Below the pieces are notes generated by a model. It was given only the letters and a program-made list of their open reading frames with translations, did not search any database and was not told the origin of the DNA. Positions 1,686-45,225 of a DNA stretch of 64,000 nt are shown here, piece by piece; position 1 is the stretch's first letter, and every line of letters starts with the position of its first letter. The stretch covers positions 84,600 through 148,599 of the forward strand of contig DUDT01000012.1 in assembly GCA_005110385.1 (NCBI GenBank), in the 5' to 3' direction. The DNA is from Candidatus Melainabacteria bacterium (lineage in GTDB: Bacteria > Cyanobacteriota > Vampirovibrionia > LMEP-6097). The translations under genes and the position numbers were made by a program.

Positions 1686-2789
1686 TTGTCTAATTTTAAG
1701 TTAATTCTTGAATATAATGGTGCAGGCTTTTCTGGCTCGCAGATTCAGAATGTACGTAAGGATCATGAGGACGACGAAAACGCAGAAATTGAAGATAGCG
1801 GGCAATCACAGAGGGGGACTGCTCGCTATCGTACAAGTTCAAGGCTGAGGAGGACGAATGACCGCAGTGTACGGGTAATTTCTAGCGATGCCGAGGATGC
1901 GAGCCATGTAAGTGGCTCATATCCGAGCAAGCAGAAATACAAGCTTGATTTATCAAGCTTACATGAGGATCATGAGGACGACGAAAACGCAGAAATTGAA
2001 GATAGCGAGCCGTCCCAGAGGACTGTTCAGGGCGAATTAGAAAAAGCTTTAAGTGCCTATTTTCGCTCAAATATCTCTACTAATTTTTCTAGTCGCACAG
2101 ACGCTGGCGTTCATGCTATCGGGCAAGTAGTAAATTTTCACTTAAGTCAGGACGACGGGAGTGGAATATCTGAGCAATCTTATAATTCCTTCTCGGAGCT
2201 GGTTTTATCGAACCCTGATAAATTTTTAATCGGTTTAAATGGTATTTTACCTCATGATATGGCGGTAGCGAAAATTGAACCAGTGGCAGATGATTTCGAC
2301 GCAAGGTTCTCAGCTATAGCTAGAGAGTATATGTATAAAATATTTATTCGCAAACATAGACCAGTACTGCGTTTAGATAGCTTACTGTGGGTAAAAGAAT
2401 CTTTAGATTTTAATGCGATGCAGGTTCATGCGCAGAAATTCCTCGGGGAGCATGATTTTAGTGCTTATTATAGAGCTGAAACTTATGCGAAGAACCCTCT
2501 CTGTAATGTTATGAAATCTGAAATGGTTCAGGAGAGTGGCATCTGCTTTAAATATTATATTCGTTCGAATCGTTTTTTAAAAAATATGGTGAGGCGTATA
2601 GTCGGGGAGCTTATTCAGGTGGGGAAATTAGCGGCTAAGGGTGAGGATGTGAGTAAATTAGAGCCGAATTTTATTTATACTGATGAAAATAAAAAAGAAA
2701 GTGGAGCTCTATTTGTTTCTCAGTATGGGCGTGTGAATGCTAAGGCTGAAGCCCCAGAGGGGCTGACTTTAATGAAGGTTTTTTATTAA
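1686..2789 (+). CDS. truA: tRNA pseudouridine(38-40) synthase TruA carrying a ~90-aa in-frame repeat-element insertion
   Basis: N-terminal FKLILEYNGAGFSGSQIQ ... TVQGELEKAL and catalytic RTDAGVHA; the normally contiguous N-terminal motif is split by bases ~1750-2025. Confidence 0.85.
   Translation: MSNFKLILEYNGAGFSGSQIQNVRKDHEDDENAEIEDSGQSQRGTARYRTSSRLRRTNDRSVRVISSDAEDASHVSGSYPSKQKYKLDLSSLHEDHEDDENAEIEDSEPSQRTVQGELEKALSAYFRSNISTNFSSRTDAGVHAIGQVVNFHLSQDDGSGISEQSYNSFSELVLSNPDKFLIGLNGILPHDMAVAKIEPVADDFDARFSAIAREYMYKIFIRKHRPVLRLDSLLWVKESLDFNAMQVHAQKFLGEHDFSAYYRAETYAKNPLCNVMKSEMVQESGICFKYYIRSNRFLKNMVRRIVGELIQVGKLAAKGEDVSKLEPNFIYTDENKKESGALFVSQYGRVNAKAEAPEGLTLMKVFY
1750..2025 (+). repeat. composite (about 1.5 copies plus an 88-bp internal segment) ENAE-type miniature inverted-repeat element, in frame within truA
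   Basis: GAGGATCATGAGGACGACGAAAACGCAGAAATTGAAGATAGCG occurs twice (about 1758-1800 and 1965-2007). The segment at 1828-1872 is the reverse complement of part of the intergenic copies at 13072-13155 and 37836-37958. Confidence 0.8.
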
Positions 2790-3824: not shown

Positions 3825-4784
3825 ATGGTTGATGAAATTCATAATGTTATTGACTTTTCAAAATGGAGAGCTAGCAAAGCTTCAAGAAATACGGTTAGCT
3901 CTCCTAATTCCTCCGACGATCAGCGCCTTCAACAGATAGCTCAAGATATTTTTGATCGTATGACTCAGGCTGCTACAGCTTTAGTTAGAAATAATAGCTC
4001 CGAAAATGTCCAAAAACTTGAGCAAGCAGCAAATTCTTTACTGCGTCGTGAAATGTCGTTAGAGGATAAATTTGCAATATTGGGTTACTTATGTAGTTTA
4101 TCTCCAAAGCGATCAGAATTAATACATTCAGAAAATGATTGGATGATGAATCCTAAACAAGAAGCTGATTTATACATTTTTAATCAATTATCAGCTCTTC
4201 GGGTGAAATTAGAGCTTCTTAGTTGGCAAGACGAGGAAGCTTCTTTACATGAATTACATAAAGCTCCTAGTGAGGGGCATCCAGCTTGGAGTGATCAACT
4301 GTTTGCGCTATTAACTAAAACTGCAATTCCAGACTGTGACAGGGTAATGATATATGATGATCTCGCGGGTCTTTATAGCCATCATCTTAATATGTTTAAG
4401 CTGCATACTCAACAGGAACCATCTTGGGATATCGTTCAATTAGCTACTTTTGTGCTGGATATAGCTGATGAAGAATTTAGACAGGAAAAAGAATATGATG
4501 AAACAAAAGCAGTACAGTCTCAGAGGCCACAATCAGAGATAACTCTAAATGATTTACAACCAGCTTCTCTAGATCTTTTCAGGCAAAGGAGGCTATCAAG
4601 GGAAAAATATAGTACCGATTCAGGGATAATTTTAAGGAATGATTTTAAAGCAAATTTTCTACAATGGATGGATAATAATCTTGAAGATTTTCACCAAGAG
4701 GGATTGAGTGGGTCTCCTGAAGAAATATTTAGTAAACTTTGCGTTTCTGCCAAAGAAGGGCAAGCCCTAAGGCTATCCCGATAG
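3825..4784 (+). CDS. hypothetical protein
   Basis: 319-codon ORF; its 3' end overlaps the convergent lgt by 56 bp. Confidence 0.5.
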   Translation: MVDEIHNVIDFSKWRASKASRNTVSSPNSSDDQRLQQIAQDIFDRMTQAATALVRNNSSENVQKLEQAANSLLRREMSLEDKFAILGYLCSLSPKRSELIHSENDWMMNPKQEADLYIFNQLSALRVKLELLSWQDEEASLHELHKAPSEGHPAWSDQLFALLTKTAIPDCDRVMIYDDLAGLYSHHLNMFKLHTQQEPSWDIVQLATFVLDIADEEFRQEKEYDETKAVQSQRPQSEITLNDLQPASLDLFRQRRLSREKYSTDSGIILRNDFKANFLQWMDNNLEDFHQEGLSGSPEEIFSKLCVSAKEGQALRLSR

Positions 4785-5583
4785 CAGATATAAGACTAGC
4801 TGCTTTTATCGGTCCTATGTATAAACTATCAGTACGAAGCTGTTCTATAAAAATTCGTCCTAGAGAATAAAGTATAAAATACAATCCTATACACTGTTTA
4901 CTCTCTAGTTTCTTGTGAGTATTTATTAGAATGCTGAAGCTGATTAGGTTCCAGATCATTTCATATAAAAAAGTGGGATGATGATATTTACCAGTGTGGC
5001 TGATATATAATGCCCAAGGCAAACTCGTTACCGAGCCGAAAGCCTCTTCGTTAAAGAAGTTCCCCCATCTGCCGATAGCTTGCCCGAGTGGGGCTGTAAT
5101 CGCCAAGGCACTTAGCTGCAAGCTGTAGTAGCTAGCTTGAGATACAGCTACATTCTCGGACTGCTCGCCATCTTCAATTTCCGCATTTTCGTTATCCTCT
5201 GGATTATTTTTTTTCGATCTCTGAAAAAAATAACTATAAATCCAAGTTCCTAATATCCCTCCAATAAGACCACCCTGTATGCTCTGCCCACCAAGCCAGA
5301 TCTGATAAGACTCTAGAGGATGCTCCCAAAAATAACTTATATTTAATAGGACAAACCAGGCTCTAGCACCGATAATCCCAGTAACGACCGCGACTAAAGC
5401 AAAATTAGAAAAATCATCGAAAGAGACACTAAGGTTCTTCTTTAATGCTCTTTCCTTCAGGACACTAGCACCAGCATAAATGGCAGTCAGGCAGCCAAGA
5501 GCCGTCATTAGACCATACCAGCGAATCTGTGTAACACCGAAGTCAAATAATATAGGTCCAGGAGATGAGAAAAGAAGAGGCAT
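4729..5583 (-). CDS. lgt: prolipoprotein diacylglyceryl transferase with a short in-frame repeat-element insertion
   Basis: Multi-pass membrane protein with IRWYGLM, GRWGNFFNEEAFG and HPTFLYE motifs typical of Lgt. Confidence 0.85.
   Translation of the reverse strand: MPLLFSSPGPILFDFGVTQIRWYGLMTALGCLTAIYAGASVLKERALKKNLSVSFDDFSNFALVAVVTGIIGARAWFVLLNISYFWEHPLESYQIWLGGQSIQGGLIGGILGTWIYSYFFQRSKKNNPEDNENAEIEDGEQSENVAVSQASYYSLQLSALAITAPLGQAIGRWGNFFNEEAFGSVTSLPWALYISHTGKYHHPTFLYEMIWNLISFSILINTHKKLESKQCIGLYFILYSLGRIFIEQLRTDSLYIGPIKAASLISAIGIALGLALLWQKRKVY
5158..5200 (-). repeat. partial ENAE-type element (terminal repeat plus core), in frame within lgt
   Basis: GGACTGCTCGCCATCTTCAATTTCCGCATTTTCGTTATCCTC aligns with the left end of the 37836 copy (GTACTGCTCGCAAACTCCAATTCCTGCGTTTTCGTCGTCTTC); it encodes EDNENAEIEDGEQSE. 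Confidence 0.7.
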
Positions 5584-6284: not shown

Positions 6285-7625
6285 TTAGCGCATTATCGAA
6301 TTTAGATGCTGTACCGTTTGAGGAAATGGCGTTGCTTCCTTTTTACCTTGCTTGAGAAATTTATCTATTTCTCCTTTGAGGTTTATTGATTTATCTATAT
6401 TAGCATTTGAACCTTTTTCGTAAGCACCGATATTAATCAAATCTTCATTCTCTTTGTAGGTAGACATTAGGTTACGCATATTAGCTGCTGAGGCTTGATG
6501 CTGCTCGTCTGTGATTTCTGTAAAAAGCCTGCTTATACTACCGAGTACATCTATCGCTGGGAAATGATTTCGCTCTGCGATTCTTCTTGAAAGCCATATG
6601 TGACCATCGAGTACACCCCTTACGGTATCGGCTATCGGTTCATTTACGTCATCACCTTCTACTAATACTGCATAAACAGCTGTGATAGAGCCAAGCTGTG
6701 ATTTACCAGCCCTCTCCAATACCCTTGGTATCATAGAAAATACGCTAGGCGTGTAACCTTTCATCGTAGGAGGCTCTCCTACTGCTAGACCCACATCCCT
6801 TGCAGCCATCGCCGTACGAGTCATACTATCTACCATGAGTAGTACGTTCTTGCCTTTATCTCTAAAATATTCAGCGATAGTAGTCGCTGTAAATAAGCAT
6901 TTCATACGCATCATAGCTGGCCTATCACCTGTAGCGATTACGCAGACTGATCTTTTCAGCCCTTCTTCACCTAAGCTTTCTTCCAGAAAATCCTGTACCT
7001 CACGACCACGCTCCCCTACTAGGCAGATCACGTTAATGTCAGCAGAGCAGTATCTAGCGAGCATCCCCATAGTCGTACTTTTACCTACACCAGACCCAGC
7101 GAAAAGTCCGACACGCTGTCCTACTCCTAAAGTCAGAAGACCGTCTATTGCTCTTACACCAGTAGAAAAGACATCATGGATTCTAGGTCTGCCAAAAGAA
7201 TCTGGGGCTGGTTGTTCGATATCTCTATATTCTTCATAAACTGGTACTGGCTTGTGATCCATTGGTACACCTATCGCATCTATAACCCTGCCGAGTAATT
7301 GTTCTGTAAGACCGACTTGTAATGTATGACCGCTAGGATAGACACTGCATCCTTGGCTGATACCTTTACCATCCTCTAAGCAGAGCATTAATGCTGTAGT
7401 ACCTCTGAAACCTACTACTTCACAGAGTTTGCTGTCGCCATTTTCTGTAACTATGCTGCACAACTCTCCTATAGTAGATCCGGGGAGTTGAGCCTCTAAT
7501 AAAAGTCCGACTACTTTACTCACATAGCCATGCCATTTTCTCGTCTCTTTAAGATGCTCTAGAGCTTTATCGCAGCGGCTAATAATATTACTCTGAATAT
7601 GTTCTTTAAAAGCAGAGAGATCCAT
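6285..7625 (-). CDS. fliI: flagellum-specific (type III export) ATPase FliI
   Basis: Walker A GSGVGKST, Walker B VLLMVDS, F1-beta-like fold, 446 aa. Confidence 0.85.
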   Translation of the reverse strand: MDLSAFKEHIQSNIISRCDKALEHLKETRKWHGYVSKVVGLLLEAQLPGSTIGELCSIVTENGDSKLCEVVGFRGTTALMLCLEDGKGISQGCSVYPSGHTLQVGLTEQLLGRVIDAIGVPMDHKPVPVYEEYRDIEQPAPDSFGRPRIHDVFSTGVRAIDGLLTLGVGQRVGLFAGSGVGKSTTMGMLARYCSADINVICLVGERGREVQDFLEESLGEEGLKRSVCVIATGDRPAMMRMKCLFTATTIAEYFRDKGKNVLLMVDSMTRTAMAARDVGLAVGEPPTMKGYTPSVFSMIPRVLERAGKSQLGSITAVYAVLVEGDDVNEPIADTVRGVLDGHIWLSRRIAERNHFPAIDVLGSISRLFTEITDEQHQASAANMRNLMSTYKENEDLINIGAYEKGSNANIDKSINLKGEIDKFLKQGKKEATPFPQTVQHLNSIMR

Positions 7626-11730: not shown

Positions 11731-13071
11731 ATGTTTAAAAAAATGAGATTTTCAATACCCTTTTCTTTGGCTTTGATTCTCTTTCTTGGGCTCTCAGTCA
11801 GTGCTGATTTTGATAAAAAATGGATTAAAGTTAGCCAAAAAGATTCTAAACACACTGAAGTCGCAACTGAAATGTTGATGAGAAAATGCAAGGATTGCCA
11901 TACTTCTCACACTGAGTACCCTTTTTACTATAATCTTCCGTTTATAAAAGATTTAATAGATCAAGATATAAAGAAAGGTTTAGCTTACTTTAATATGGAA
12001 ATCGAAGTTTTTAATAAAGAGTTCGATTCGGAAATCAGTTCTACTTCCCTAAATAAGATAAAAAGTGTCTTAGAGAATGGCTCTATGCCACCACTCCAGT
12101 ATAAACTTATGCACTGGGATTCTCACTTTAGTGATACTGAGAAGAAGATAGTTACGACTTGGATTAAGGATCTTAGTAATAGTGACTTTATTCCTATCCC
12201 AAGTAAAGAAGATATGGAATTAGACGAGAATTTAGTGCTTCTTGGAGAGAAACTTTTTAGTGATACTAGGTTGTCACGTGATAACACTATATCCTGTGCC
12301 TCTTGCCATGATTTAGCTAAGGGTGGCACTGATCAAATGCAGTTCTCAACAGGTGTTGCTGGTGGTCATGGACGTATTAATTCTCCTACTGTATTTAATT
12401 CTGTTTTCAATATTAAGCAATTTTGGGATGGACGAGCAGAGGATTTAATCGCACAAGCTAGCGGGCCAGTGCATAATCCACTGGAGATGGGTTCTAATTG
12501 GGATGAAGTTGTGGCTAAATTAAGTGCTGATGCTGATTACATAGTCCTGTTTGAGAGTGCCTTTGGCTCACAAGAGATTACTGGAGAGAAAGTAGCAGCT
12601 GCCATTGCTGAATTTGAAAAATCACTAGTTACCCCAGATAATAAGTTCGATTTATATCTGAAGGGTAATGATTACGCACTTTCTGATAAAGAGAAGCAAG
12701 GATTCGAATTATTTAAAAAATATAATTGTAATAATTGTCACCTAGGAGTCTCGGTAGGAGCGAATTCTTTTCAGAAAATGGGCGTCTATAAAGATTATTT
12801 TGCAGATAGGGCTGCAGGGCTTAATGGTTTAAAACAGATGCCCCTTGCGAAGGAAGATTTAGGTAGATTTAATGTAACTAGGGCTGAAGTTGATAGGCAT
12901 GTATTTAAAGTTCCGACTTTAAGAAATATTAAGAAAACTTTTCCTTATTTGCATGATGGGACTATTCGAAGTCTATCTAGAACTGTAGAAATTATGGGTG
13001 AATATCAAGTCGGGAAAACTATTCCGAAGGAAGATGTGACCAAGATAGTACTTTTCTTGAAAACCCTTTAA
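11731..13071 (+). CDS. cytochrome c peroxidase (CCP/MauG family) with an extra N-terminal haem-binding domain
   Basis: Signal peptide; CxxCH motifs CKDCH, CASCH and CNNCH; FWDGRAEDL and PTLRN motifs typical of di-haem CCP. Confidence 0.8.
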   Translation: MFKKMRFSIPFSLALILFLGLSVSADFDKKWIKVSQKDSKHTEVATEMLMRKCKDCHTSHTEYPFYYNLPFIKDLIDQDIKKGLAYFNMEIEVFNKEFDSEISSTSLNKIKSVLENGSMPPLQYKLMHWDSHFSDTEKKIVTTWIKDLSNSDFIPIPSKEDMELDENLVLLGEKLFSDTRLSRDNTISCASCHDLAKGGTDQMQFSTGVAGGHGRINSPTVFNSVFNIKQFWDGRAEDLIAQASGPVHNPLEMGSNWDEVVAKLSADADYIVLFESAFGSQEITGEKVAAAIAEFEKSLVTPDNKFDLYLKGNDYALSDKEKQGFELFKKYNCNNCHLGVSVGANSFQKMGVYKDYFADRAAGLNGLKQMPLAKEDLGRFNVTRAEVDRHVFKVPTLRNIKKTFPYLHDGTIRSLSRTVEIMGEYQVGKTIPKEDVTKIVLFLKTL

Positions 13072-13155
13072 GGCACTATTGCCGAACTCCAATTTCTGCG
13101 TTTTCGTCGTCTTCATGATCCTCAGCCTTGAACTTGTACGTTTGGCAGCAGTGCC
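13072..13155 (-). repeat. ENAE-type miniature inverted-repeat element, complete 84-bp intergenic copy
   Basis: Terminal inverted repeats GGCACTATTGCCGA (13072-) and TTGGCAGCAGTGCC (-13155); core CTCCAATTTCTGCGTTTTCGTCGTCTTCATGATCCTCAGCCTTGAACTTGTACG; starts directly after the ccp TAA. Confidence 0.8.
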
Positions 13156-14618: not shown

Positions 14619-14700
14619 GAGACTTCTCTTTTGTTTATAAAAAATTCGATTAATTAAAGAGACCCTGCACAACCATTAGATAAAGATGTTAGAATAATTT

Positions 14701-14725
14701 CATTTTCTGCGTTTTCCTTGTCCTC
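14701..14725 (+). repeat. fragment of an ENAE-type element abutting the stop codon of the GT4 gene
   Basis: CATTTTCTGCGTTTTCCTTGTCCTC matches the element core (TTTCTGCGTTTTCGTCGTC). Confidence 0.5.
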
Positions 14726-15868
14726 TTAAAACCGCTGCTTCTTAAAATTAAATATAAAACTAAAAATAAGCCAAATAGCAGCTATAGAGCCAATTATAAC
14801 TAGGTAACTTATACCTACTTCATAACCGACTTCAAAGCAGCCTAAGCCTCCACAAAAAAGACTCAAAGAGTAAATTAAGTAATTTATTTGCTTATGTGAA
14901 AGTCCTAAATTCTCTAGCTGGTGATGTAGGTGTTCTGAGTCTGGCTTTAAGATATCTTTTTTATTTAGAGATCGCCTTATTATAGTATAGAAGCAGTCTA
15001 GTAGCGGCAATGCGAAGATTAAAATAAGTAATGGCGTTATAATCGCAACTGTGATTTTTTTTGCAAGACCGAGACAGGAAAGGGAAGCAAGGACGAAGCC
15101 GAGAAGATATGAACCGTTATCGCCGAGAAACATTCTAGCGGGATGAAAGTTGTAACGTAGAAAGCCTAAGCTCGCTCCAGCTAAGGTGGCAGCAAGTAGG
15201 GCTGCGTCTGGTCTATAAAGGAGTGGACTTAAGCTAATAGCCCAAATCGCTACTGCTGAAATGACACTTACTCCAGCTGCTAATCCATCTATGCCATCTA
15301 TTAAATTTATGGCGTTACTGATAAGCACGAGGAAAGCCACTGTGATTAAAAAACTGGAAATGGCACCAAGCTTTATGTGTGGGCTCAGGCTGTGATCGAA
15401 ATAATAGAGAGGGTTTGCGAGGAATTTAATTTTCAAACCTAGTAGTGAAGTAATAGAAGCCGCTGAAACTTGTCCAAGAAGTTTCGTTAGGCAGGGTAGT
15501 GGTTTTATATCATCAAGTAAGCCGATTAAGAAAATCATGGTACTGCCAGTGATTATCGCTTCTAGCTCTAAATGCTTAATACCTGCAGGGGTAAATCTGC
15601 CATAGACTATTATAAAAATAACTACAGTAACTGCGGTTGAAATTAATATAGATAATCCACCTAATCTCGGCGTGGAGAGCGTTTTCATTTTATCTCCTAC
15701 GTTTGAGTAGTAGCGCCCAGATTCTAATTCTTTTCTTGTAGTAAAGCCAGCCCTTTCTTTGATGATAGGGGTAAGTATATAAGACAAAAATAAAGCGATG
15801 ATAAAAGCTAATGGTTGAGCTTGGCTCAGATCCACGAAGGTGCTGAATTCATTAAACGGTATATTCAA
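14726..15868 (-). CDS. glycosyltransferase family 4 (MraY/WecA-type polyprenyl-phosphate N-acetylhexosamine-1-phosphate transferase)
   Basis: Multi-pass membrane protein with NAINLIDGIDGLAAG and DDIKPL motifs. Confidence 0.8.
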   Translation of the reverse strand: MNIPFNEFSTFVDLSQAQPLAFIIALFLSYILTPIIKERAGFTTRKELESGRYYSNVGDKMKTLSTPRLGGLSILISTAVTVVIFIIVYGRFTPAGIKHLELEAIITGSTMIFLIGLLDDIKPLPCLTKLLGQVSAASITSLLGLKIKFLANPLYYFDHSLSPHIKLGAISSFLITVAFLVLISNAINLIDGIDGLAAGVSVISAVAIWAISLSPLLYRPDAALLAATLAGASLGFLRYNFHPARMFLGDNGSYLLGFVLASLSCLGLAKKITVAIITPLLILIFALPLLDCFYTIIRRSLNKKDILKPDSEHLHHQLENLGLSHKQINYLIYSLSLFCGGLGCFEVGYEVGISYLVIIGSIAAIWLIFSFIFNFKKQRF

Positions 15869-17354: not shown

Positions 17355-17378
17355 GGCACTGTTGCCGAACTCCAATTA
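17355..17378 (-). repeat. truncated ENAE-type element (left terminal repeat only)
   Basis: GGCACTGTTGCCGAACTCCAATT is near-identical to the first 23 nt of the 13072 copy, after which similarity ends. Confidence 0.55.
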
Positions 17379-19896: not shown

Positions 19897-22341
19897 TTGA
19901 TATATTCTCTTGAGAGTTGTCCAAGGGGTATCCTAATGTCTAAATCTCTTTCTAATGTAAATATTAATAAACCATTTACGCAAGATAATGCTAGAACTGG
20001 TAAGGGCGAGAATACTGCTGATCAGGCTTCAAGAAAAGATACTTCGAAACGTGCTTCTGCAGTGAGAGACTCGATCATTAATAACAATAATAGTAAAAAC
20101 TCGACTATTTATGCAGGCAGAGGCGATGATGTAATTAATAACAACAATAGTGAAAACTCGACTATTTACGCAGGCAGAGGCGATGATGTAATTAATAACA
20201 ACAATAGTGAAAACGAGACTATTTATGCAGGCAGAGGCGATGATGTAATTAATAATAACAATAGTGAAAACTCGACTATTTATGCAGGCAGAGGCGATGA
20301 TGTAATTAATACGGATACTTTAGGAAGTAATACTATTAAGGCTGGTCGAGGCGATGATGTTGTCAATGTATCAGTAGAGATGGGGTCAAGAACTAATCCT
20401 AATGGAACTTTGACTATAAACGGTGGTGCTGGTCATGATAAAGTCATTCTCTCGGGGAAAAGGGAAGATTATGAGATTGATAAAAAAGGTAATTATGTCC
20501 ATATCGATACAGGTTCTCGAATTAAGATTAATGATGATGTAGAAGAAGTCAAGTTCCAAGAAGCAAGTACAAACAATTCAGCGAGTACTACTAGTCGAAC
20601 CAATCAGGGTAAGATAAAGGCTTTGCAGCAAGGTCTGGATAAATATTTTGATGTTTTAAATACGTCGGCGGGCGAAGCCACTTTAATACAAGATCCAGAT
20701 GCTCTGACTGCGGCAAGACAGAATGCTGAGTTTACTAAACAATATAAATCAGATTTTACTAATGTTTGGGATAAAAACAAAGATGGTAGTTTAGATACTA
20801 CCGAGGTCACTCAATTTGGGTGGAAAGCTGAGGATTGGAATAAACATGTACTTAAGCATGATAAGAGTGGTGATGGGAAATTAAATTTTGATGAACTTCT
20901 AGGTGTTTGGAGGGAGTTTGATACGGATAAGAGTGGTAAATTGGAAGGCACTGCTACCACTGGCGAGATGGGAGTTTACGTGCGCGGTGATTATAAGAAA
21001 ATCTCTTCACAAGATCCAGATGCTCTGACTGCGGCAAGACAGAATGCTGAGTTTACTAAACAATATAAATCAGATTTTACTAAAGTTTGGGATAAAAACA
21101 AAGATGGTAGTTTAAATACTACCGAGGTCACTTCATTTGGGTGGAAAGCTGAGGATTGGAATAAACATGTACTTGAGCACGATAAGAGTGGTGATGGGAA
21201 ATTAAATTTTGATGAACTTCTAGGTGTTTGGAGAGAGTTTGATACTGATAAGAGTGGTAAATTGGAAGGTGTATTTGGAAAGGATGCCACTACTACCACT
21301 GGCGAGATGGGAGTTTACTGGCGCGGTGATTATGATAGTACAATGTCGCTCACATCAAGGCTTGATAAAATGGGCAATGAACTTAAAAAAATTGGTCCCA
21401 TAAAAATGAATTACGATGATTTCGTTGGTGCAAATGAAGGCGCATTTTCTCCAGTCACATATGCCGCTCGAACCGATTCTCTACAGCAACTGAGTTCAGA
21501 TGTCTTAGTAGACCTTGAAAATCAAATGTCAGCAGCTTTAGCAATAGATACAGACGCTGGAAGGCAGTCTGTGGCAAATTTAAGGACTGAAATGAAAACA
21601 ACTGCACAGCAGTTTAAACTTGATAATGGGGCATCAGAGCTTATGAATGGTTTGATTAACAAAGTTCAGATAGATTTCGGTAATATTGATAAAGAGCAAG
21701 CTAAAAGTCTTTATCAGATTAATCTAGAGAACCTTGTTGAAGCAGAGGTTAAATATAGTCAGGGTATTGCTACTGGCAATTTCGAAGAAAGAAGAGGAGT
21801 ATTACCTCAAATTACAGCGCTCGGAGAAATGCGAACTACTCAGCATGTAATTAGTGAATTAGAAAGGCAATATGGTTTTAAACGTCAAGATCTACTGCCG
21901 GAAAGGGCACTACAGGCAGAATTTATTGTTGAGTTGAATAATGATGCACTAGCTGATTTAAAGAATCAAATGTCTGAATCTTTAACAATAGATTCAGAGG
22001 CTGGGAGAATATCTTCAGCCGCTCTTAGGATTGAAATTAATCTAGTTAAAAAGGACAAGGATTTTTGGAGTAATAGAGCTGATTACTGGAGTGGTGATGA
22101 TACGTCTGCACCTAAGGTTAATGTAACTGACACAATGCCAGTAAGAGCAGCTCAGGCAGAATTTTTTGTTGAGTTGAATAATGATATACTCTACGATCTA
22201 AACACTCAGATGTCAGCAGCTTTAGCAATAGATACAGAAGCTGGAAGATTATCTGCTGCTTCTTTAAGAACTGAGATTGCTACGACCAAATCTCTATTAG
22301 GTTTTTGGCAGTCTGCAGCTACTTACTGGTCTGGATCTTGA
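19897..22341 (+). CDS. large repetitive putative calcium-binding protein (RTX-like GxGxDxU repeats plus EF-hand-like DxDxDG loops); start may be ATG at 19936
   Basis: 5 x 19-aa INNNNSENSTIYAGRGDDV, 2 x 107-aa units each with DKNKDGSL, DKSGDGKL and DTDKSGKL loops, and 3 C-terminal AEFxVELNND...IDxEAGR repeats. Confidence 0.7.
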   Translation: MIYSLESCPRGILMSKSLSNVNINKPFTQDNARTGKGENTADQASRKDTSKRASAVRDSIINNNNSKNSTIYAGRGDDVINNNNSENSTIYAGRGDDVINNNNSENETIYAGRGDDVINNNNSENSTIYAGRGDDVINTDTLGSNTIKAGRGDDVVNVSVEMGSRTNPNGTLTINGGAGHDKVILSGKREDYEIDKKGNYVHIDTGSRIKINDDVEEVKFQEASTNNSASTTSRTNQGKIKALQQGLDKYFDVLNTSAGEATLIQDPDALTAARQNAEFTKQYKSDFTNVWDKNKDGSLDTTEVTQFGWKAEDWNKHVLKHDKSGDGKLNFDELLGVWREFDTDKSGKLEGTATTGEMGVYVRGDYKKISSQDPDALTAARQNAEFTKQYKSDFTKVWDKNKDGSLNTTEVTSFGWKAEDWNKHVLEHDKSGDGKLNFDELLGVWREFDTDKSGKLEGVFGKDATTTTGEMGVYWRGDYDSTMSLTSRLDKMGNELKKIGPIKMNYDDFVGANEGAFSPVTYAARTDSLQQLSSDVLVDLENQMSAALAIDTDAGRQSVANLRTEMKTTAQQFKLDNGASELMNGLINKVQIDFGNIDKEQAKSLYQINLENLVEAEVKYSQGIATGNFEERRGVLPQITALGEMRTTQHVISELERQYGFKRQDLLPERALQAEFIVELNNDALADLKNQMSESLTIDSEAGRISSAALRIEINLVKKDKDFWSNRADYWSGDDTSAPKVNVTDTMPVRAAQAEFFVELNNDILYDLNTQMSAALAIDTEAGRLSAASLRTEIATTKSLLGFWQSAATYWSGS
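20077..20361 (+). repeat. 57-bp tandem repeat x5 (fifth unit degenerate) inside the CDS
   Basis: Unit starts at 20077, 20134, 20191, 20248 and 20305; near-identical ATTAATAACAACAATAGTGAAAACTCGACTATTTAYGCAGGCAGAGGCGATGATGTA. Confidence 0.9.
20689..21330 (+). repeat. 321-bp tandem duplication inside the CDS
   Basis: CAAGATCCAGATGCTCTGACTGCGGCAAGACAGAATGCTGAG... starts at 20689 and again at 21010, with only scattered substitutions. Confidence 0.9.
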
Positions 22342-24474: not shown

Positions 24475-25316
24475 GGCTCTTTACTTGCCGGGTGCTTTTC
24501 CGCACTCGACTTTTACAGATAAGATTAATGTTTCAATCATCAAGGCAACAATTAAAAACAAAAAAGCTAAACCGCAAGGGTCTAGCTTTTTCGTTTGCAT
24601 AAATGGTGCGCCTGGATAGATTTGAACCATCGAAGCAACCAGTGCGAGTTAAAGTCTCTAGTCCGCCACCAATCGGGATTCTTTAGATGTAAAAGCTTCG
24701 CTTTTACGGCGGGGTGCTTTTCCGCACTCGACTTTTACGGACAAGATGAATGTTTCAATCATCAAGGCAACGATTAAAAACAAAAAAGCTAAACCGCAAG
24801 GGTCTAGCTTTTTTGTTTGCATAAATGGTGCGCCTGGATAGATTTGAACCATCGAAGCAACCAGTGCGAGTTAAAGTCTCTAGTCCGCCACCAATCGGGA
24901 TTCTTTAGATGTAAAAGCTTCGCTTTTACTTGCCGAGTGCTTTTCCGCACTCGACTTTTACGGACAAGATGAATGTTTCAATCATCAAGGCAACGATTAA
25001 AAACAAAAAAGCTAAACCGCAAGGGTCTAGCTTTTTTGTTTGCATAAATGGTGCGCCTGGATAGATTTGAACCATCGAAGCAACCAGTGCGAGTTAAAGT
25101 CTCTAGTCCGCCACCAATCGGGATTCTTTAGATGTAAAAGCTTCGCTTTTACTTGCCGAGTGCTTTTCCGCACTCGACTTTTACGGACAAGATGAATGTT
25201 TCAATCATCAAGGCAACGATTAAAAACAAAAAAGCTAAACCGCAAGGGTCTAGCTTTTTTGTTTGCATAAATGGTGCGCCTGGATAGATTTGAACCATCG
25301 ACCAATCGGTTAAAAG
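24475..25316. repeat. 222/223-bp tandem array (about 3.8 units); each unit begins with the 3'-terminal 30 nt of tRNA-Lys (45 nt in the last copy)
   Basis: TGGTGCGCCTGGATAGATTTGAACCATCGA at 24604, 24826, 25049 and 25272; units are near-identical and each contains three hairpins. Confidence 0.9.
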
Positions 25317-25415
25317 GTAAGTCCCCCAAAGCCATTATAGGCTTATAACCTAGCTTTCAAGCTTTCAGATAACCTAAATTTCTTGCGTCTTGCGCCTTGA
25401 ATAAAGGAGTAAGAA

Positions 25416-33375: not shown

Positions 33376-33753
33376 ATCTTTATTTCCTATTTATATTAGG
33401 GGGTTACTCAGCCTTTGCTAAATGCCCCGCTAATCTATTTGTATTATATTGGCTTATTTTCAAAGCCCTTAATTCCATAAGCGTTGCTGGTTAATGACTT
33501 GGTCATATCTTCATTTCCTATTCTTGGCTTATTATAGTCTCTACTTTTTAATTAAATCGCAGAATAGGTATTGATGTGTAAAACATTAAAGCTCTTACAG
33601 TAGCTATATGGCCTCTGAGTAGAAAAGGTGCTTTATCTGCCTCTTACCCATAATCAAATTCTAACAGGGCTAATAAAGCTAGAGATACTAGGTATAATCT
33701 AAGAAGGTGAAGCGCAAGACGCAAGTTTTTTCACCTTCTGGAATCTTTATAAA

Positions 33754-33828
33754 TGGTGCGCCTGGATAGATTTGAACCATCGACCAATCGGTTAAAAGCC
33801 GAGTGCTCTACCGCTGAGCTACAGGCGC
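33754..33828 (-). tRNA. tRNA-Lys (anticodon UUU)
   Basis: Reverse complement GCGCCTG-TA-GCTC-AGCGGTA-GAGC-A-CTCGG-CTTTTAA-CCGAT-TGGTC-GATGG-TTCAAAT-CTATC-CAGGCGC-A-CCA folds as a cloverleaf. Confidence 0.92.
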
Positions 33829-37227: not shown

Positions 37228-37836
37228 ATGAATAATTTGACCTTATTTGCGTTACTGTTTTCTATATGTGCTGCTTGTAATGCTGAAATGAAAATTTTTA
37301 TAAATGATAAAAAACCTGCGGTACTAGCACCGACTCAAGCTAGACCACCAGTTAAAAAAGTAGTTAAGGAGAAAAAGAAAATGAGCACTGAATTTAAAAT
37401 AGGGGATTTAGCTCCAGATTTCACTTTAAATGACCAAAACGGTAAAGCACAGACTCTATCTAGTTATAAGGGTAAGTTTGTACTTGTTTATTTCTATCCT
37501 AAGGATGATACTCCAGGATGTACTATAGAAGCTTGTTCTATTAGGGATAATGTTGCTCAGTTTTCGAAATATGATGTTAAAGTCTTTGGTATTAGTGCTG
37601 ACGACGTAGCTAGTCATAAAAAGTTTATTACTAAATATAAGTTACCTTTTGATTTACTTGCTGATACTAATAAAACAGTAGCTAAGCTCTATGGTGCTGA
37701 TGGACTTTTTATTAAAAGAATCTCTTTCTTGATTGATAAAGAAGGAAAGTTTGCGAAATTATACCCAAGTGTGAATCCTAGTCAGCATGCTGGGGAAATA
37801 CTTGCGGATTTAGCTTCGCTTACTCAGCGTATATAG
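37228..37836 (+). CDS. bcp: peroxiredoxin Bcp (thiol peroxidase) with an N-terminal signal/lipoprotein-like extension
   Basis: FVLVYFYPKDDTPGCTIEAC peroxidatic Cys motif; N-terminal LFALLFSICAAC; alternative start M52 at 37381. Confidence 0.85.
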   Translation: MNNLTLFALLFSICAACNAEMKIFINDKKPAVLAPTQARPPVKKVVKEKKKMSTEFKIGDLAPDFTLNDQNGKAQTLSSYKGKFVLVYFYPKDDTPGCTIEACSIRDNVAQFSKYDVKVFGISADDVASHKKFITKYKLPFDLLADTNKTVAKLYGADGLFIKRISFLIDKEGKFAKLYPSVNPSQHAGEILADLASLTQRI

Positions 37837-37958
37837 GTACTGCTCGCAAACTCCAATTCCTGCGTTTTCGTCGTCTTCATGATCCTCATGTACTTCGAGT
37901 ACACTGCGGTCATTCGTCCTCCTCAGCCTTGTACTTGCACGTTCATTAACAGTCCCGT
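37836..37958 (-). repeat. ENAE-type miniature inverted-repeat element, long (123-bp) intergenic variant
   Basis: GGTACTGCTCGCAAACTCCAATTCCTGCGTTTTCGTCGTCTTCATGATCCTC + 37-bp extra module + CTCAGCCTTGTACTTGCACG...AACAGTCCC; its first base is the last base of the bcp TAG. Confidence 0.8.
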
Positions 37959-44184: not shown

Positions 44185-45225
44185 TTATATTACTTCCTCT
44201 AAAGCCTTCCAACTCTTACACTCTTTATGAATCTGAAACTCTATATGCTTATAAAGTAGCTGTAAACATGATTTCAATTCATTATTCTGTGAGTCGAGGC
44301 TAAAAGCTATTTCTGGGACGGATGAGGAAATATTATTATCGAGCTGATGCTGATGGTGCTGTACGCCTGCCTCAAGACTAGCTTTAATTTCCTCCAAACT
44401 CACTTGCATATAATTCACTAAAAAATCTTCTATCAAAATTTCTCTTAATGTGATTTTTTTATTTTCGTTTTGAAAAGATACCTGAAAATCAGTGTCTAAG
44501 CTGCTTAGTGGTGATCTGTCTAAGGCATCTAAAAGTTTAAATGTAAATTTCTTTAAAGAGACTATATGATCGTCTGTGTGGTAGCCCTGCCTGTAGAGCT
44601 CATAGCCCTCTGTGCTGCAAATAGAACCACTGCTGAGGTCGAAATATTGTGGTATCTGCTTAGGCTGTCTGCGTTTGCGTGTGAGCGTGCAGGTATTTAA
44701 GTCTGGCTTGTAACCAAGCTCGCAGATTATGCACCAGAGAAATTCTATGCTGAGAAGCAGTTGTTGATTCGTTTTAATTTCACCAGACTGCTCGTAAGCT
44801 CCAGTTTCTGCGTTTTCGCTGATTCTATTTTTATTTAAATGCCCTGCTGTAATGCTTTTAAGGTATCTTAAGTAAATATCCAAAAGCTCAAAGAAATTTC
44901 TCGTGCTATCGCATTCATTTGAGATTTTTTCAGTGATTTCTGATGCGAAAAAAGCTAAGTTTAAGGCTAGAAGATCAGAGCAGCCTAAGAGGAAATTATT
45001 TACTATGCTGACTTCTGAGACTATATCTAGGTTTTTCCCTTTGGCGAGTAGGAAATCGCAGTGATTTAAAGTCTGGGTTTTCGCGGCAAATGAGCTGTTC
45101 ATGCGCCTAGCACCTTTAGCGATAGCTGAAATTAAACCGTTTTCAGGAGTTAAAATTTTTAATATTCTATCTGCTTCACCGAGCTTTTGGGTTTTAAGAA
45201 TAATCCCAGAGCTTCTATACTGCAT
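44185..45225 (-). CDS. recO: DNA repair protein RecO, extended and carrying a short in-frame repeat-element insertion
   Basis: N-terminal OB-fold region SSGIILKTQKLGEADRILKILTPENGLISAIAKGARR; 346 aa versus about 250 typical. Confidence 0.7.
   Translation of the reverse strand: MQYRSSGIILKTQKLGEADRILKILTPENGLISAIAKGARRMNSSFAAKTQTLNHCDFLLAKGKNLDIVSEVSIVNNFLLGCSDLLALNLAFFASEITEKISNECDSTRNFFELLDIYLRYLKSITAGHLNKNRISENAETGAYEQSGEIKTNQQLLLSIEFLWCIICELGYKPDLNTCTLTRKRRQPKQIPQYFDLSSGSICSTEGYELYRQGYHTDDHIVSLKKFTFKLLDALDRSPLSSLDTDFQVSFQNENKKITLREILIEDFLVNYMQVSLEEIKASLEAGVQHHQHQLDNNISSSVPEIAFSLDSQNNELKSCLQLLYKHIEFQIHKECKSWKALEEVI
44785..44823 (-). repeat. partial ENAE-type element in frame within recO
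   Basis: AGACTGCTCGTAAGCTCCAGTTTCTGCGTTTTCGCTGAT aligns with the left end of the 37836 copy; it encodes ISENAETGAYEQSGE. Confidence 0.6.

What the first reader, a model, noticed from the sequence alone, without database searches (positions are those of the whole stretch)
1750..2025. About 275-bp composite element inserted in frame in truA, adding ~90 aa to an essential-type tRNA modification enzyme
TruA normally reads ...GxQxQ-(few aa)-TVQxxLE. Here GSQIQ (ending ~1749) and TVQGELE (from ~2023) are separated by about 90 codons that contain no stop.

The insert consists of:
- a right-hand half element
- AGAG
- a full element whose two halves are separated by an 88-bp segment carrying its own palindromes (GAGCCATGTAAGTGGCTC; AAGCTTGATTTATCAAGCTT)
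- AGAG
- GACTGTT

The peptide HEDDENAEIEDS appears twice. Nested or tandem insertion that still preserves the frame implies either selection for read-through or a protein-level tolerance or role. This is behaviourally analogous to Rickettsia palindromic elements.
Basis: partly seen in the sequence, partly recalled or inferred. Interest (0 to 1): 0.75.

Follow-up and report, generated by a model that had tools for sequence, protein, structure and literature searches.

The report
Palindromic mobile repeat translated inside truA
The tRNA-modification gene truA of this non-photosynthetic cyanobacterial relative (Vampirovibrionia) carries about 267 bases of a palindromic mobile repeat that is read through as a floppy surface loop; the same repeat sits in frame in dozens of other housekeeping genes of this lineage, a behaviour best known from Rickettsia.

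Summary
truA (1686-2789) contains a stop-free composite at 1752-2021. It consists of a 5'-truncated copy of a palindromic repeat, the pentamer AGAGG, a complete 202-nt copy with 16-nt inverted arms, and AGAGG again. The closest relative's TruA (98% identical) lacks 84 of these codons.

Other relatives carry intermediate forms, and outgroup TruAs have only 2-4 residues at this position. The repeat is a dispersed family found in five Vampirovibrionia/Caenarcaniphilales genome assemblies. Its forms are 121, 130 and 202 nt long, and each becomes a whole number of codons once the 5-bp target duplication is added.

Of 104 copies embedded in long ORFs, 100 lie in one orientation and one reading frame, encoding ...RTSSRLRRTNDRSV..HEDHEDDENAEI.... 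Copies outside ORFs show no orientation bias.

The truA core is under purifying selection (dN/dS 0.07-0.29) and the insert is not (about 0.6-1.3). AlphaFold models the insert as a disordered loop on an intact TruA fold.

One correction: the "88-bp nested segment" is part of a recurrent long variant of the repeat, not a truA-specific event. Unusually for such elements, the arms vary between copies while staying complementary, and the core is nearly invariant. No transposase partner was found.

The parts
1686..2789 (+). truA ORF (367 aa, TTG start directly after the grpE stop). It is the host gene of the composite insert.
   Evidence: One search gives the ORF. One search gives Pfam PF01416. One search matches E. 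coli TruA 1dj0 (E = 6e-28). In one search the AlphaFold model matches 1dj0_A with a target-normalised TM-score of 0.82.
1752..1809 (+). 5'-truncated upstream copy (the right half of the repeat, model positions about 56-118). It encodes ..KDHEDDENAEIEDSGQS and its outer arm has decayed (GGGCAATCAC).
   Evidence: Searches give the nhmmer hit 1744-1806 (E = 3e-13). One search gives direct repeat D1.
1810..1814 (+). AGAGG, the left copy of the 5-bp target-site duplication of the full copy. It also acts as the spacer between the tandem copies.
   Evidence: One search gives the coordinates. One search shows that a 5-bp duplication is a property of the family.
1815..2016 (+). Complete 202-nt copy of the palindromic repeat (long variant). 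The left arm is 1815-1830 and the right arm is 2001-2016. It encodes GTARYRTSSRLRRTNDRSV...HEDHEDDENAEIEDSEPS in the truA frame.
   Evidence: In one search the RNA fold is -81.1 kcal/mol with z = -7.5 against shuffles.
1873..1960 (+). Central module of the long variant, sitting in the apical hairpin of the repeat. It adds a net 81 nt (27 codons) and carries two small palindromes of its own.
   Evidence: One search finds the same 88 nt at 96-100% identity in L045, L047, L031, L049, L008, L007, L095, L101, L107 and L023, always inside a copy of the repeat.
2017..2021 (+). AGAGG, the right copy of the 5-bp target-site duplication. Native truA resumes at 2022 (ACTGTTCAG = TVQ).
5157..5221 (-). In-frame remnant of the same family in lgt (..NPEDNENAEIEDGEQSE..). 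Its length varies among orthologues.
13072..13155 (-). 84-nt short form of the repeat, intergenic, directly after the stop of the cytochrome c peroxidase gene. Its orientation is antisense to both neighbouring genes.
14691..14748 (-). Weak remnant of the right half, lying between ORFs.
   Evidence: One search finds a 21-mer with 3 mismatches. One search gives nhmmer E = 0.12, so this is tentative.
17355..17377 (-). Isolated arm remnant (GGCACTGTTGCCGAACTCCAATT).
   Evidence: repeat family D14: 96% identical to the arm of the copy at 13072.
37836..37956 (-). Complete 121-nt copy, intergenic, abutting the stop of the AhpC-like gene. Its left arm is degraded.
   Evidence: (E = 8e-39).
44785..44839 (-). 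In-frame remnant in recO (..SENAETGAYEQSG..), between the RecO_N and RecO_C domains.
   Evidence: nhmmer E = 2e-4.

Best explanation
The segment is not native truA sequence. It is a composite of a non-autonomous palindromic mobile repeat, a MITE-like family confined to a clade of Vampirovibrionia (Caenarcaniphilales-like) bacteria.

**The element.** A copy has a nearly invariant core of about 90 nt, an apical hairpin that can carry an extra module, and two 15-16-nt complementary arms. A new insertion duplicates 5 bp of the target. The propagating forms are 121, 130 and 202 nt, so element plus duplication is always a whole number of codons (42, 45 or 69).

**The coding filter.** One reading frame of one strand is open and encodes a very hydrophilic peptide, basic then acidic. 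Copies that land in that frame in a tolerant loop of a protein are kept. Other orientations and frames are purged.

**History at truA (inferred).**
1. A copy inserted between the GSQIQ strand and helix 1, at the pentamer (A/C)A(A/G)GG.
2. The site then acquired a second, head-to-tail copy sharing the pentamer, either by re-insertion or by tandem duplication.
3. The upstream copy lost its left part.
4. Recombination between the two direct right halves repeatedly collapsed or re-expanded the array in different lineages.

This produced the observed series: composite with a 202-nt copy (this window), composite with a 121-nt copy, a solo right half (15-20 residues between the conserved Asn and Arg), and a near-empty allele that still keeps 8-9 nt of the arm.

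**Consequence.** The insert is transcribed and translated as an 89-residue disordered surface loop on an otherwise intact, selectively maintained TruA. It is tolerated, not useful.

**Shown versus inferred.** Shown: the anatomy, family membership, polymorphism, frame and orientation filter, 5-bp duplication, relaxed constraint on the insert, and the intact predicted fold. Inferred: the order of events, that translation actually occurs, and how the element moves.
For: **Repeat family**
- The core 21-mer occurs 7 times in the window against 0 expected.
- nhmmer finds 243 copies or fragments in 843 kb of related loci.
- The 22-mer scan of 185,579 species genomes hit only five Vampirovibrionia-type assemblies. 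One extra hit, in a Moraxellaceae assembly, was a chance match.

**Polymorphism at truA**
- P0002 (98% identical), P0007, P0014 and P0020 have 5 residues at the site.
- P0004, P0005, P0009, P0010 and P0019 have 15-20 residues.
- P0001, P0003 and P0006 have 47-57 residues, and the window has 89.
- Outgroups have 2-4 residues, apart from Caenarcaniphilales P0026 with 11.
- These states are scattered over the gene tree.

**Target duplication**
- 11 of 74 full copies have a perfect 5-bp flanking repeat, against 0.33 expected. 27 of 74 match at 4 or 5 of the 5 positions.
- The truA copy has a perfect AGAGG on both sides.
- L100 is a filled site with ATTAT on both sides. Its orthologue L104 is an empty site.

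**Codon compatibility**
- 121+5, 130+5 and 202+5 are all multiples of 3.
- Forms of 70-84 nt occur only outside ORFs.

**Coding filter**
- 100 of 104 ORF-embedded copies are in the same orientation and phase 0. Three of the four exceptions lie upstream of the probable start codon.
- Intergenic full copies flanked by co-oriented ORFs are 10 sense and 8 antisense.
- Ten host ORFs scanned against Pfam (of the 76 found) are real conserved proteins: DabA, PanE, a cytochrome c assembly protein, FtsX, a GlpD-like oxidoreductase, RecJ, ArgJ, GuaA, a binding protein and RadA.

**No peptide-level constraint**
- Insert dN/dS is about 0.6-1.3, against 0.07-0.29 for the truA core.
- Variability of the element core shows no codon periodicity: 0.15 / 0.22 / 0.17 bits at codon positions 1 / 2 / 3.

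**Fold**
- AlphaFold mean pLDDT is 79.7, with most of the core above 90 (lower in residues 151-170 and 331-350).
- Residues 21-110, which span the 89-residue insert (23-111), have 10-residue block means of 38-68, and the model shows almost no regular secondary structure there (one 4-residue helix at 29-32).
- The model matches E. coli TruA 1dj0.
- The site lies just before V26 of E. coli TruA.
- The insert is 49% GC against 36% for the window. Its peptide has GRAVY -1.69 and pI 4.8.
Against: - No autonomous element or transposase with matching ends was found in the window or in the 111 loci.
- The conservation pattern is the reverse of a classical MITE. The arms are hypervariable (mean 0.88 bits) and the core is nearly invariant (0.18 bits). 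A transposase that recognises the terminal repeats by sequence is therefore not obviously the mobilising agent.
- At several orthologous sites the 'empty' allele is a solo right half, not a clean target. At one site (L001) the spacer pentamer does not match the right flank. Part of the copy-number change is therefore recombinational, not transpositional.
- Synonymous divergence of the insert among P0001, P0003 and P0006 is 0.03-0.07, far below that of the host gene (0.24-0.48). This requires recent re-insertion, gene conversion or nucleotide-level constraint.
- No transcript or protein data exist for this organism, so translation through a hairpin of -81 kcal/mol is inferred only from the conservation of the gene.
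Confidence: 0.8

Rival explanations
1. The element is real, but it is not a classical transposase-driven MITE. It would be a structured single-stranded (RNA or ssDNA) hairpin element. Its conserved core would be the recognition site and its arms would need only to pair. It would spread by a hairpin-dependent enzyme (an IS200/IS605- or REP/RAYT-like nuclease, an integrase-like recombinase, or reverse transcription) together with ectopic recombination.
For: - 15 of the 16 arm pairs show changes on both sides. 175 compensated cells are observed against 50.8 in shuffles (0 of 500 shuffles reach the observed value), and 93% of arm cells remain paired.
- The apical hairpin also covaries, with UA to CG and CG to UA changes in 6 copies each.
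- The core is nearly invariant across arm subfamilies shared by several genomes.
- G:T pairs outnumber A:C pairs on the sense strand, 70 to 25 overall and 41 to 23 in the arms (p = 0.03).
- In the window's truA, all three arm segments carry the same locus-specific T/A change with its compensating partner.
- Arms of full copies match the arm of the adjacent remnant better than the arms of other copies, 20% against 5.5%.
Against: - A variable-sequence 5-bp target duplication is the signature of staggered-cut DDE transposition. It is not expected for IS200/IS605- or RAYT-type elements.
- Copies are not phylogenetically independent, so the shuffle test and the G:T bias are weak evidence.
- Mismatch correction within a hairpin, or selection for cruciform or hairpin stability, would give the same covariation.
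- No Rfam family matches the region.
- No associated enzyme gene was seen.
Confidence: 0.25
2. The encoded peptide has a selected function in TruA and the other hosts. It could act, for example, as a charged disordered linker, a localisation tag or an interaction tag, and the insertions would be adaptive.
For: - The peptide is strongly charged and very similar in many proteins.
- Only one frame is found inside genes.
- The core of the element is highly conserved.
Against: - Insert dN/dS is about 0.6-1.3, against 0.07-0.29 for the host core.
- Conservation of the element is equal at all three codon positions, and it is the same in intergenic copies.
- A 98%-identical sister TruA lacks the composite, and other relatives carry every intermediate length.
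- AlphaFold gives no structure for the segment.
Confidence: 0.08
3. The segment is removed before the mature protein is made, as an intron, an intein or by translational bypass. In that case the frame preservation would be incidental.
For: The RNA is predicted to form a very stable hairpin (-81 kcal/mol, z = -7.5). Such a hairpin could in principle be processed.
Against: - No Rfam family matches the region, which excludes known group I and II introns and self-cleaving ribozymes.
- No intein-like features are visible in the peptide.
- The near-absolute restriction of genic copies to one open frame and to 3n lengths would be unnecessary if the segment were excised.
Confidence: 0.03
4. truA in this genome is a decaying pseudogene, or the composite is an assembly artefact of a repeat.
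For: - Repeats are prone to misassembly.
- In one related assembly (L006), lgt is split into two ORFs at a copy of the element.
- The window's exact TruA protein is not in the protein collection, and two metagenome scans did not find the window's truA insert junctions.
Against: - The ORF is uninterrupted, and all residues invariant in the 64-sequence TruA alignment are present, including the catalytic RTDAGVH motif.
- Core dN/dS against the sister allele is 0.07.
- Homologous composites occur at the same site in independent assemblies from JGI, ENA and NCBI.
- The same 'half + 202-nt copy' architecture, with the same 207-nt spacing, occurs in another gene in L045.
Confidence: 0.03

Closest known systems
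Rickettsia palindromic elements (RPE-1 to RPE-10; Ogata et al. 2000, 2002, as summarised in PMC10969869)
   Same: - Palindromic repeats of about 100-150 bp dispersed through a small genome.
- A large fraction sit in frame in unrelated housekeeping genes.
- They encode a conserved peptide placed where the host fold tolerates it.
- Copies are present or absent among related genomes.
- No transposase is encoded.
   Different: - There is no sequence relationship: the 22-mer scan hit no Rickettsia genome.
- The host phylum is different (Vampirovibrionia, the sister group of photosynthetic cyanobacteria).
- This family has a clear 5-bp target duplication and lengths that are exactly 3n once it is added.
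- It has modular size variants (84, 121, 130 and 202 nt).
- Head-to-tail partial tandems are frequent.
- The arms covary around an invariant core.
- I could not check whether RPEs share the last three traits.
Classical bacterial MITEs (Correia/NEMIS of Neisseria, Nezha and other cyanobacterial MITEs, Coxiella QMITEs; PMC10969869, PMC5896051)
   Same: - Small size, no coding capacity for a transposase, and terminal inverted repeats.
- A target-site duplication.
- Many dispersed copies with insertion polymorphism.
- Occasional in-frame fusions; QMITE2, for example, extends enhC.
   Different: - In those families the terminal repeats are the conserved part and match a known IS. Here the arms are the most variable part and no parent IS was found.
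- In-frame residence is the exception in those families. Here about 40% of sampled copies are in frame inside ORFs.
- Correia elements duplicate TA, not 5 bp (from my own knowledge).
REP/REPIN elements mobilised by RAYT transposases, and ERIC/IRU elements
   Same: They are hairpin-forming dispersed palindromes in which secondary structure matters. ERIC elements can lie inside transcribed regions and carry ORFs (PMC10969869).
   Different: - REP and REPIN elements are extragenic, have conserved terminal 25-mers and make no variable 5-bp duplication.
- No RAYT gene was seen here, although none was specifically searched for.
Small dispersed repeats (SDR) of heterocystous cyanobacteria (Elhai et al. 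2008; recalled from memory, not checked here)
   Same: They occur in a related phylum, are very small mobile repeats that nest within one another, and are sometimes found in genes.
   Different: SDRs are 21-27 nt units. This element is 121-202 nt with a defined core and arms. Homology was not tested.

Membership tests
MITE (miniature inverted-repeat transposable element) | Terminal inverted repeats | tested here: met
   The arms are 15-16 nt. In 60 aligned copies 93% of arm cells are paired.
MITE (miniature inverted-repeat transposable element) | Target-site duplication of fixed length | tested here: met
   The duplication is 5 bp. 11 of 74 copies have a perfect repeat against 0.33 expected, and 27 of 74 match at 4 or 5 of the 5 positions. 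AGAGG flanks the truA copy on both sides.
MITE (miniature inverted-repeat transposable element) | Small, multicopy, dispersed, with no transposase ORF | tested here: met
The only open frame encodes a 40-67-aa hydrophilic peptide.
MITE (miniature inverted-repeat transposable element) | Filled and empty alleles at orthologous sites | tested here: met
   The truA allele series is shown. L100 (filled) and L104 (empty) form a clean pair, and several sites show a solo right half against half plus full copy.
MITE (miniature inverted-repeat transposable element) | A related autonomous IS sharing the terminal repeats | tested here: inconclusive
   No left-arm/right-arm pair enclosing more than 600 nt of coding sequence was found in the window or the 111 loci. 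These are fragments of metagenome assemblies, which often lack IS copies.
Rickettsia palindromic elements (as a homologous family) | Sequence similarity to RPE consensus sequences and occurrence in Rickettsiales | tested here: not met
   The exact 22-mer core scan of one genome per species hit only Vampirovibrionia-type assemblies, plus one chance match. No direct alignment to RPE consensus sequences was possible, because none were available.
Rickettsia palindromic elements (as a mode of behaviour) | Palindromic repeat inserted in frame in many unrelated protein genes at structurally tolerant sites | tested here: met
   There are 76 host ORFs, of which ten were confirmed as conserved families. 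The truA site is a low-confidence loop on an intact fold.
Intein | Self-splicing protein domain with Hint-fold blocks and nucleophilic residues at the junctions | tested here: not met
   The only Pfam hit on the protein is PF01416. The insert is a low-complexity charged peptide modelled without structure.
Group I/II intron or known self-cleaving ribozyme | Match to a curated RNA family | tested here: not met
   Rfam 15 scanned over 1500-2300 on both strands at E <= 1 gave no match.
TruA (tRNA pseudouridine 38-40 synthase), the host gene | PseudoU_synth_1 fold with the catalytic Asp in the RTDxGVH motif | tested here: met
   Pfam PF01416 matches. RTDAGVH at residues 137-143 lies within invariant or nearly invariant alignment columns. 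Foldseek gives a target-normalised TM-score of 0.82 to 1dj0. Enzyme activity cannot be tested here.

The most novel reading that the evidence does not exclude
This is a previously undescribed class of gene-dwelling selfish element, adapted to live inside coding sequence. Its length plus target duplication is kept at 3n in every propagating variant. One strand carries a permanently open frame for a disordered peptide. Mobility would depend on a conserved internal core presented on a hairpin whose arms are free to vary as long as they pair. That would imply a structure-specific, non-classical mobilising enzyme, possibly one acting on single-stranded DNA or RNA. If so, it would be an independent second invention of the Rickettsia phenomenon in a free-living lineage, with its own mechanism.
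Probability: 0.2. Interest if true: 0.8.

Novelty: new member of a known kind. Interest (0 to 1): 0.55.

Why it matters
In-frame palindromic repeats have mostly been discussed as a peculiarity of Rickettsia, an obligate intracellular bacterium in which weak selection was thought to explain their tolerance. A second, unrelated family behaving the same way would widen that picture. Here it occurs in Vampirovibrionia, in dozens of housekeeping enzymes (TruA, Lgt, RecO, GuaA, RadA, RecJ, ArgJ and others). Mobile DNA may therefore be a general source of loop insertions in bacterial proteins.

The family also offers a clean natural experiment:
- an allelic series (5, 15-20, 47-57 and 89 residues) at one site of one enzyme;
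- a near-absolute orientation and frame filter;
- 3n-compatible lengths;
- an unusual conservation pattern of invariant core and covarying arms, which constrains how the element moves.

There is a practical consequence too. These inserts inflate and fragment gene calls in metagenome assemblies, and can mislead homology searches.

Tried and rejected
- **Rfam.** The region gave no family at E <= 1, so the intron and ribozyme ideas were dropped.
- **Autonomous parent element.** I searched for left and right arms 0.3-5 kb apart. Only the 202-nt variants and unrelated neighbouring copies turned up.
- **Peptide searches in the 5.8-billion-protein collection.** The forward and reverse-frame peptides returned only short 'hypothetical' ORFs called on intergenic copies, 38 for the forward frame and 2 for the reverse. 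They did not give the intended census of host proteins. I replaced them with my own ORF census on the fetched loci.
- **Exact look-up of the window's TruA.** It is not on record.
- **Two metagenome scans** for the window-specific truA junctions found nothing, so the same allele was not seen in an independent sample.
- **Moraxellaceae hit** of the 22-mer. It was a chance match with no element around it, so the idea of horizontal transfer was dropped.
- **Position of the loop relative to tRNA or the dimer interface.** The accessible review gave no residue-level information, and model coordinates cannot be analysed with these tools.
- **The 88-bp segment as an independent nested mobile element.** Rejected, because every other occurrence lies inside the apical hairpin of a copy of this same repeat.
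- **The 'empty' alleles as pristine targets.** Rejected, because they retain AGC(A/C)GTCCC, the outer part of the right arm.
Full report
**1. What is in the sequence**

ORF 1686-2789 (+) starts with TTG directly after the stop codon of grpE (996-1685). It encodes a 367-aa protein of the TruA family (Pfam PF01416, E = 5e-20). The N-terminal strand and the GSQIQ motif end at 1748, and the conserved RTVQGELE helix starts at 2019/2022. The 91 codons in between have no stop.

The anatomy is as follows:

| Coordinates | Feature |
|---|---|
| 1752-1809 | right half of a repeat, with a decayed outer arm |
| 1810-1814 | AGAGG |
| 1815-2016 | complete 202-nt copy; arms 1815-1830 and 2001-2016 are 94% complementary |
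| 2017-2021 | AGAGG |
| 2022 onward | native ACTGTT |

- The 62-nt direct repeat 1753-1814 / 1960-2021 is 90% identical, and a 31-mer from it occurs exactly twice in the window against 0 in shuffles.
- The insert is 49% GC against 36% for the window. Its peptide is extremely hydrophilic, with GRAVY -1.69 and pI 4.8.

**2. It is a dispersed repeat family, not native truA sequence**

- The 21-nt core occurs 7 times in the window with at most 3 mismatches, against 0 expected.
- The window holds a complete 121-nt copy (37836-37956) and an 84-nt form (13072-13155). In-frame remnants lie in lgt (5157-5221) and recO (44785-44839), and there are two weak remnants.
All were in five assemblies:
  - Vampirovibrionia Deming_bin.154
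  - 'bacterium' samp_4445_VAMB_679
  - Cyanobacteria bacterium REEB446
  - Caenarcaniphilales RE-15aug16-7
  - WB4_1_1465, which is labelled Proteobacteria
- One further match, in a Moraxellaceae assembly, was due to chance.
- TruA homologues name the same lineage.
- An nhmmer profile finds 243 copies or fragments in the 843 kb now held.

**3. The truA site is polymorphic among close relatives**

All of these proteins are 78-98% identical outside the insert. Counts are residues between the conserved Asn and Arg.

| State | Proteins |
|---|---|
| 5 residues (VK[Q/P]SQ) | P0002, which is 98% identical to the window; P0007; P0014; P0020 |
| 15-20 residues, a solo right half (..SNAEIEDC..) | P0004, P0005, P0009, P0010, P0019 |
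| 47-57 residues, right half + pentamer + 121-nt copy | P0001, P0003, P0006 |
| 89 residues | the window |
| 2-4 residues | outgroups P0024, P0087 and gammaproteobacterial P0100 and P0103 (Caenarcaniphilales P0026 has 11) |

- These states are scattered on the gene tree, so several gains or losses occurred.
- Even the shortest alleles keep AGC(A/C)GTCCC, the outer part of the right arm. They look like collapsed derivatives and not virgin targets.
- Relative to P0002, the window has 1755-2009 in place of AAG, a gain of 84 codons.

**4. The 88-bp segment**

The same 88 nt occur at 96-100% identity in at least 10 other loci from several assemblies. In every case they lie inside the apical hairpin of a copy of this repeat. 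Host genes include a GlpD-like oxidoreductase (L047) and an unnamed gene in L045.

The L045 gene has the same 'right half + pentamer + 202-nt copy' architecture and the same 207-nt spacing as truA. The segment is therefore the module of a long variant of the family, not a nested event private to truA.

**5. Properties of the element**

*Target duplication.* 11 of 74 full copies have a perfect 5-bp flanking repeat against 0.33 expected, and 27 of 74 match at 4 or 5 of the 5 positions. L100 (ATTAT on both sides) and L104 form a filled/empty pair.

*Length.* 121+5 = 126, 130+5 = 135 and 202+5 = 207, all whole numbers of codons. The 70-84-nt forms are seen only outside ORFs.

*Frames.* Frame +0 is open in all forms and encodes GTA.(R/K)RTSSRLRRTNDRSVL.VHEDHEDDENAEI(G/E).... 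The other frames mostly carry stops, although the reverse frame -0 is open in some 121-nt copies.

*Coding filter.*
- Of 104 copies with at least 40 stop-free codons on both sides, 100 are in the sense orientation and phase 0.
- Three of the four exceptions lie upstream of the likely start codon.
- Intergenic full copies between co-oriented ORFs are 10 sense and 8 antisense.
- The bias is therefore a filter acting in coding sequence, not an insertion preference.

*Hosts.* There are 76 host ORFs. Ten were checked and all are conserved families: DabA, PanE, cytochrome c assembly, FtsX, GlpD-like, RecJ, ArgJ, GuaA, a binding protein and RadA. The first protein search had already pulled in unrelated proteins through the insert alone, including a TrmE, a photolyase-domain protein (PF00875) and an oxidoreductase.

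*Partial tandems.*
- 20% of full copies are preceded, 5 nt upstream, by a sequence matching their own right arm. The mirror arrangement occurs in 1.4%.
- Arrays of 3-4 units with a 126-127-nt period exist (L072, L028, L093).
- At several orthologous sites the alternative alleles are 'solo right half' and 'right half + pentamer + full copy'.
- This is what recombination between the two direct right halves would produce.

**6. An unusual conservation pattern**

- In 60 aligned 121-nt copies the core is nearly invariant (0.18 bits per column). The 15-nt arms (0.88 bits) and the apical loop (1.47 bits) vary.
- The arms stay complementary. 15 of 16 pairs show changes on both sides, 175 compensated cells are observed against 50.8 in shuffles (0 of 500), and slid controls collapse.
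- The apical hairpin covaries too.
- G:T pairs exceed A:C pairs on the sense strand, 70 to 25 overall and 41 to 23 in the arms (p = 0.03). The copies are not independent, so this is weak evidence.
- Core variability has no codon periodicity, so the conservation is at the nucleotide level, not the peptide level.
- In the window's truA, both right arms read GATAGCG and the left arm reads the compensating GCTATC. Relatives have GATTGCG and GCAATC.
- This pattern is the reverse of classical MITEs. It suggests that pairing of the arms and the sequence of the core are what matter for propagation.
- No autonomous partner was found.

**7. Is TruA still a working gene?**

- The ORF is intact, and the catalytic RTDAGVH motif and all invariant residues are present.
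- Core dN/dS is 0.07 against P0002 and 0.17-0.29 against other relatives. For the insert it is about 0.6-1.3.
- Insert dS among P0001, P0003 and P0006 (0.03-0.07) is far below the host dS (0.24-0.48). This points to recent re-insertion, gene conversion or nucleotide-level constraint.
- AlphaFold (64-sequence alignment) gives mean pLDDT 79.7, with most of the core above 90 (lower in residues 151-170 and 331-350). Residues 21-110, which span the 89-residue insert (23-111), have 10-residue block means of 38-68, and the model shows almost no regular secondary structure there (one 4-residue helix at 29-32).
- The model's best structural match is E. coli TruA 1dj0 (target-normalised TM-score 0.82).
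- The site corresponds to the turn just before V26 of E. coli TruA, between the GWQRQ strand and helix 1.
- I could not measure its distance to the tRNA or to the dimer interface.
- The 202-nt copy would fold as RNA at -81.1 kcal/mol (z = -7.5). Its effect on translation or mRNA stability is unknown.

**8. Most likely mechanism**

A non-autonomous palindromic mobile repeat inserted at (A/C)A(A/G)GG in the loop-coding part of truA. A second head-to-tail copy arose at the same pentamer, and the upstream copy was truncated. Recombination between the direct right halves has since contracted or re-expanded the array in different lineages.

The window carries the version whose full copy is the 202-nt variant. 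Its 98%-identical sister has the collapsed allele. The window's composite is therefore either a recent re-expansion, by insertion or by ectopic conversion from a composite like the one in L045, or the sister allele is a recent collapse.

The insert is translated as a tolerated disordered loop. The order of events, the translation itself and the mobilising enzyme are all inferred.

**9. Comparison with known systems**

- In behaviour this is the Rickettsia palindromic element phenomenon (PMC10969869): palindromic repeats in frame in many housekeeping genes at tolerant sites.
- It is not a member of that family. There is no shared sequence, and no Rickettsia genome was hit.
- It meets four of the five MITE criteria tested. 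The parent-IS criterion is unresolved.
- It differs from Correia, Nezha and QMITE elements in its variable arms and invariant core, and in the scale of in-frame residence (PMC10969869, PMC5896051).
- Full-text searches found no description of such elements in Melainabacteria, Vampirovibrionia or Caenarcaniphilales.

**10. Verdict**

I rate the novelty as a new member of a known kind. The family has several features that merit follow-up: 3n design, an absolute frame filter, covarying arms, and an allelic series at one site. Interest is 0.55.

Noticed in passing
window 24480-25375, 25267-25316 and 33749-33828: A 50-nt stretch at 25267-25316 is 100% identical to the 3' part of tRNA-Lys(ttt) at 33754-33828 (-). 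The roughly 8.5 kb between them encodes a tyrosine integrase (25416-26531), DUF3800, a Sel1/TPR protein, an RDD protein, DUF3987, DUF3854 and a truncated second integrase. This looks like an integrative island at tRNA-Lys. Just upstream, 24480-25375 holds four tandem repeats of about 223 nt. The first three carry an 80% match to the same tRNA fragment and the fourth contains the exact copy. They may be stacked attachment-site remnants.
   Followed up: partly
window 5157-5221 (lgt, 4729-5583, minus strand): Residues of about 126-147 of Lgt are derived from the same repeat (NPEDNENAEIEDGEQSE). Their length and sequence differ among four orthologues, while the flanks are invariant. This is a second in-frame variable site in the window.
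   Followed up: yes
window 44785-44839 (recO, 44185-45225, minus strand): A short in-frame remnant of the repeat (SENAETGAYEQSG) lies between the RecO_N and RecO_C domains.
   Followed up: partly
L006:6653-7590 (GCA_009924885.1, lgt): In this relative, lgt is called as two overlapping ORFs, with a 110-nt copy of the repeat at 7065-7174. This is either a frameshifting and therefore disruptive insertion or an assembly error.
   Followed up: no
P0019 (TruA of a related assembly), alignment A1 columns ~180-197: This TruA has a second repeat-derived insert (GVDGENAEIGVSLHAHLG) in a different loop, after ..NFHLNQ. At least two loops of TruA therefore accept the element.
   Followed up: no
L072:1743-2118, L028:2515-2761, L093:5562-5805: These are head-to-tail arrays of 2-4 copies with a 126-127-nt period, the same pentamer lying between units. 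Two of the three (L028, L093) lie inside ORFs.
   Followed up: partly
window 19897-22341: This 814-aa ORF has internal repeats: five units of 57 nt (20020-20361), a 261-nt repeat present twice 321 nt apart (20688-21269), and 83-143-nt repeats (21511-22278). It was not characterised.
   Followed up: no
window 13069-13072 and 37834-37836; L001:1243/1244; L002:6261/6262: Several intergenic copies abut a stop or start codon to the base. Elements may therefore often supply or sit against gene ends, and gene callers may extend ORFs into them.
   Followed up: no
one search hit list (P0093-P0118): A whole-protein search with this TruA returns unrelated proteins at E = 1e-30 to 1e-37, purely through the insert. 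They include a TrmE, a photolyase-domain protein (PF00875), an FAD oxidoreductase, an alpha/beta hydrolase and a PF13231 glycosyltransferase-family protein. This is a trap for automated annotation in this lineage.
   Followed up: partly
RFQS01 assembly (GCA_009924885.1, 'Proteobacteria bacterium WB4_1_1465'): This assembly carries the element and a TruA 82% identical to the window's, with the same gene order as the Vampirovibrionia assemblies. Its 'Proteobacteria' label is probably a misclassification.
   Followed up: no
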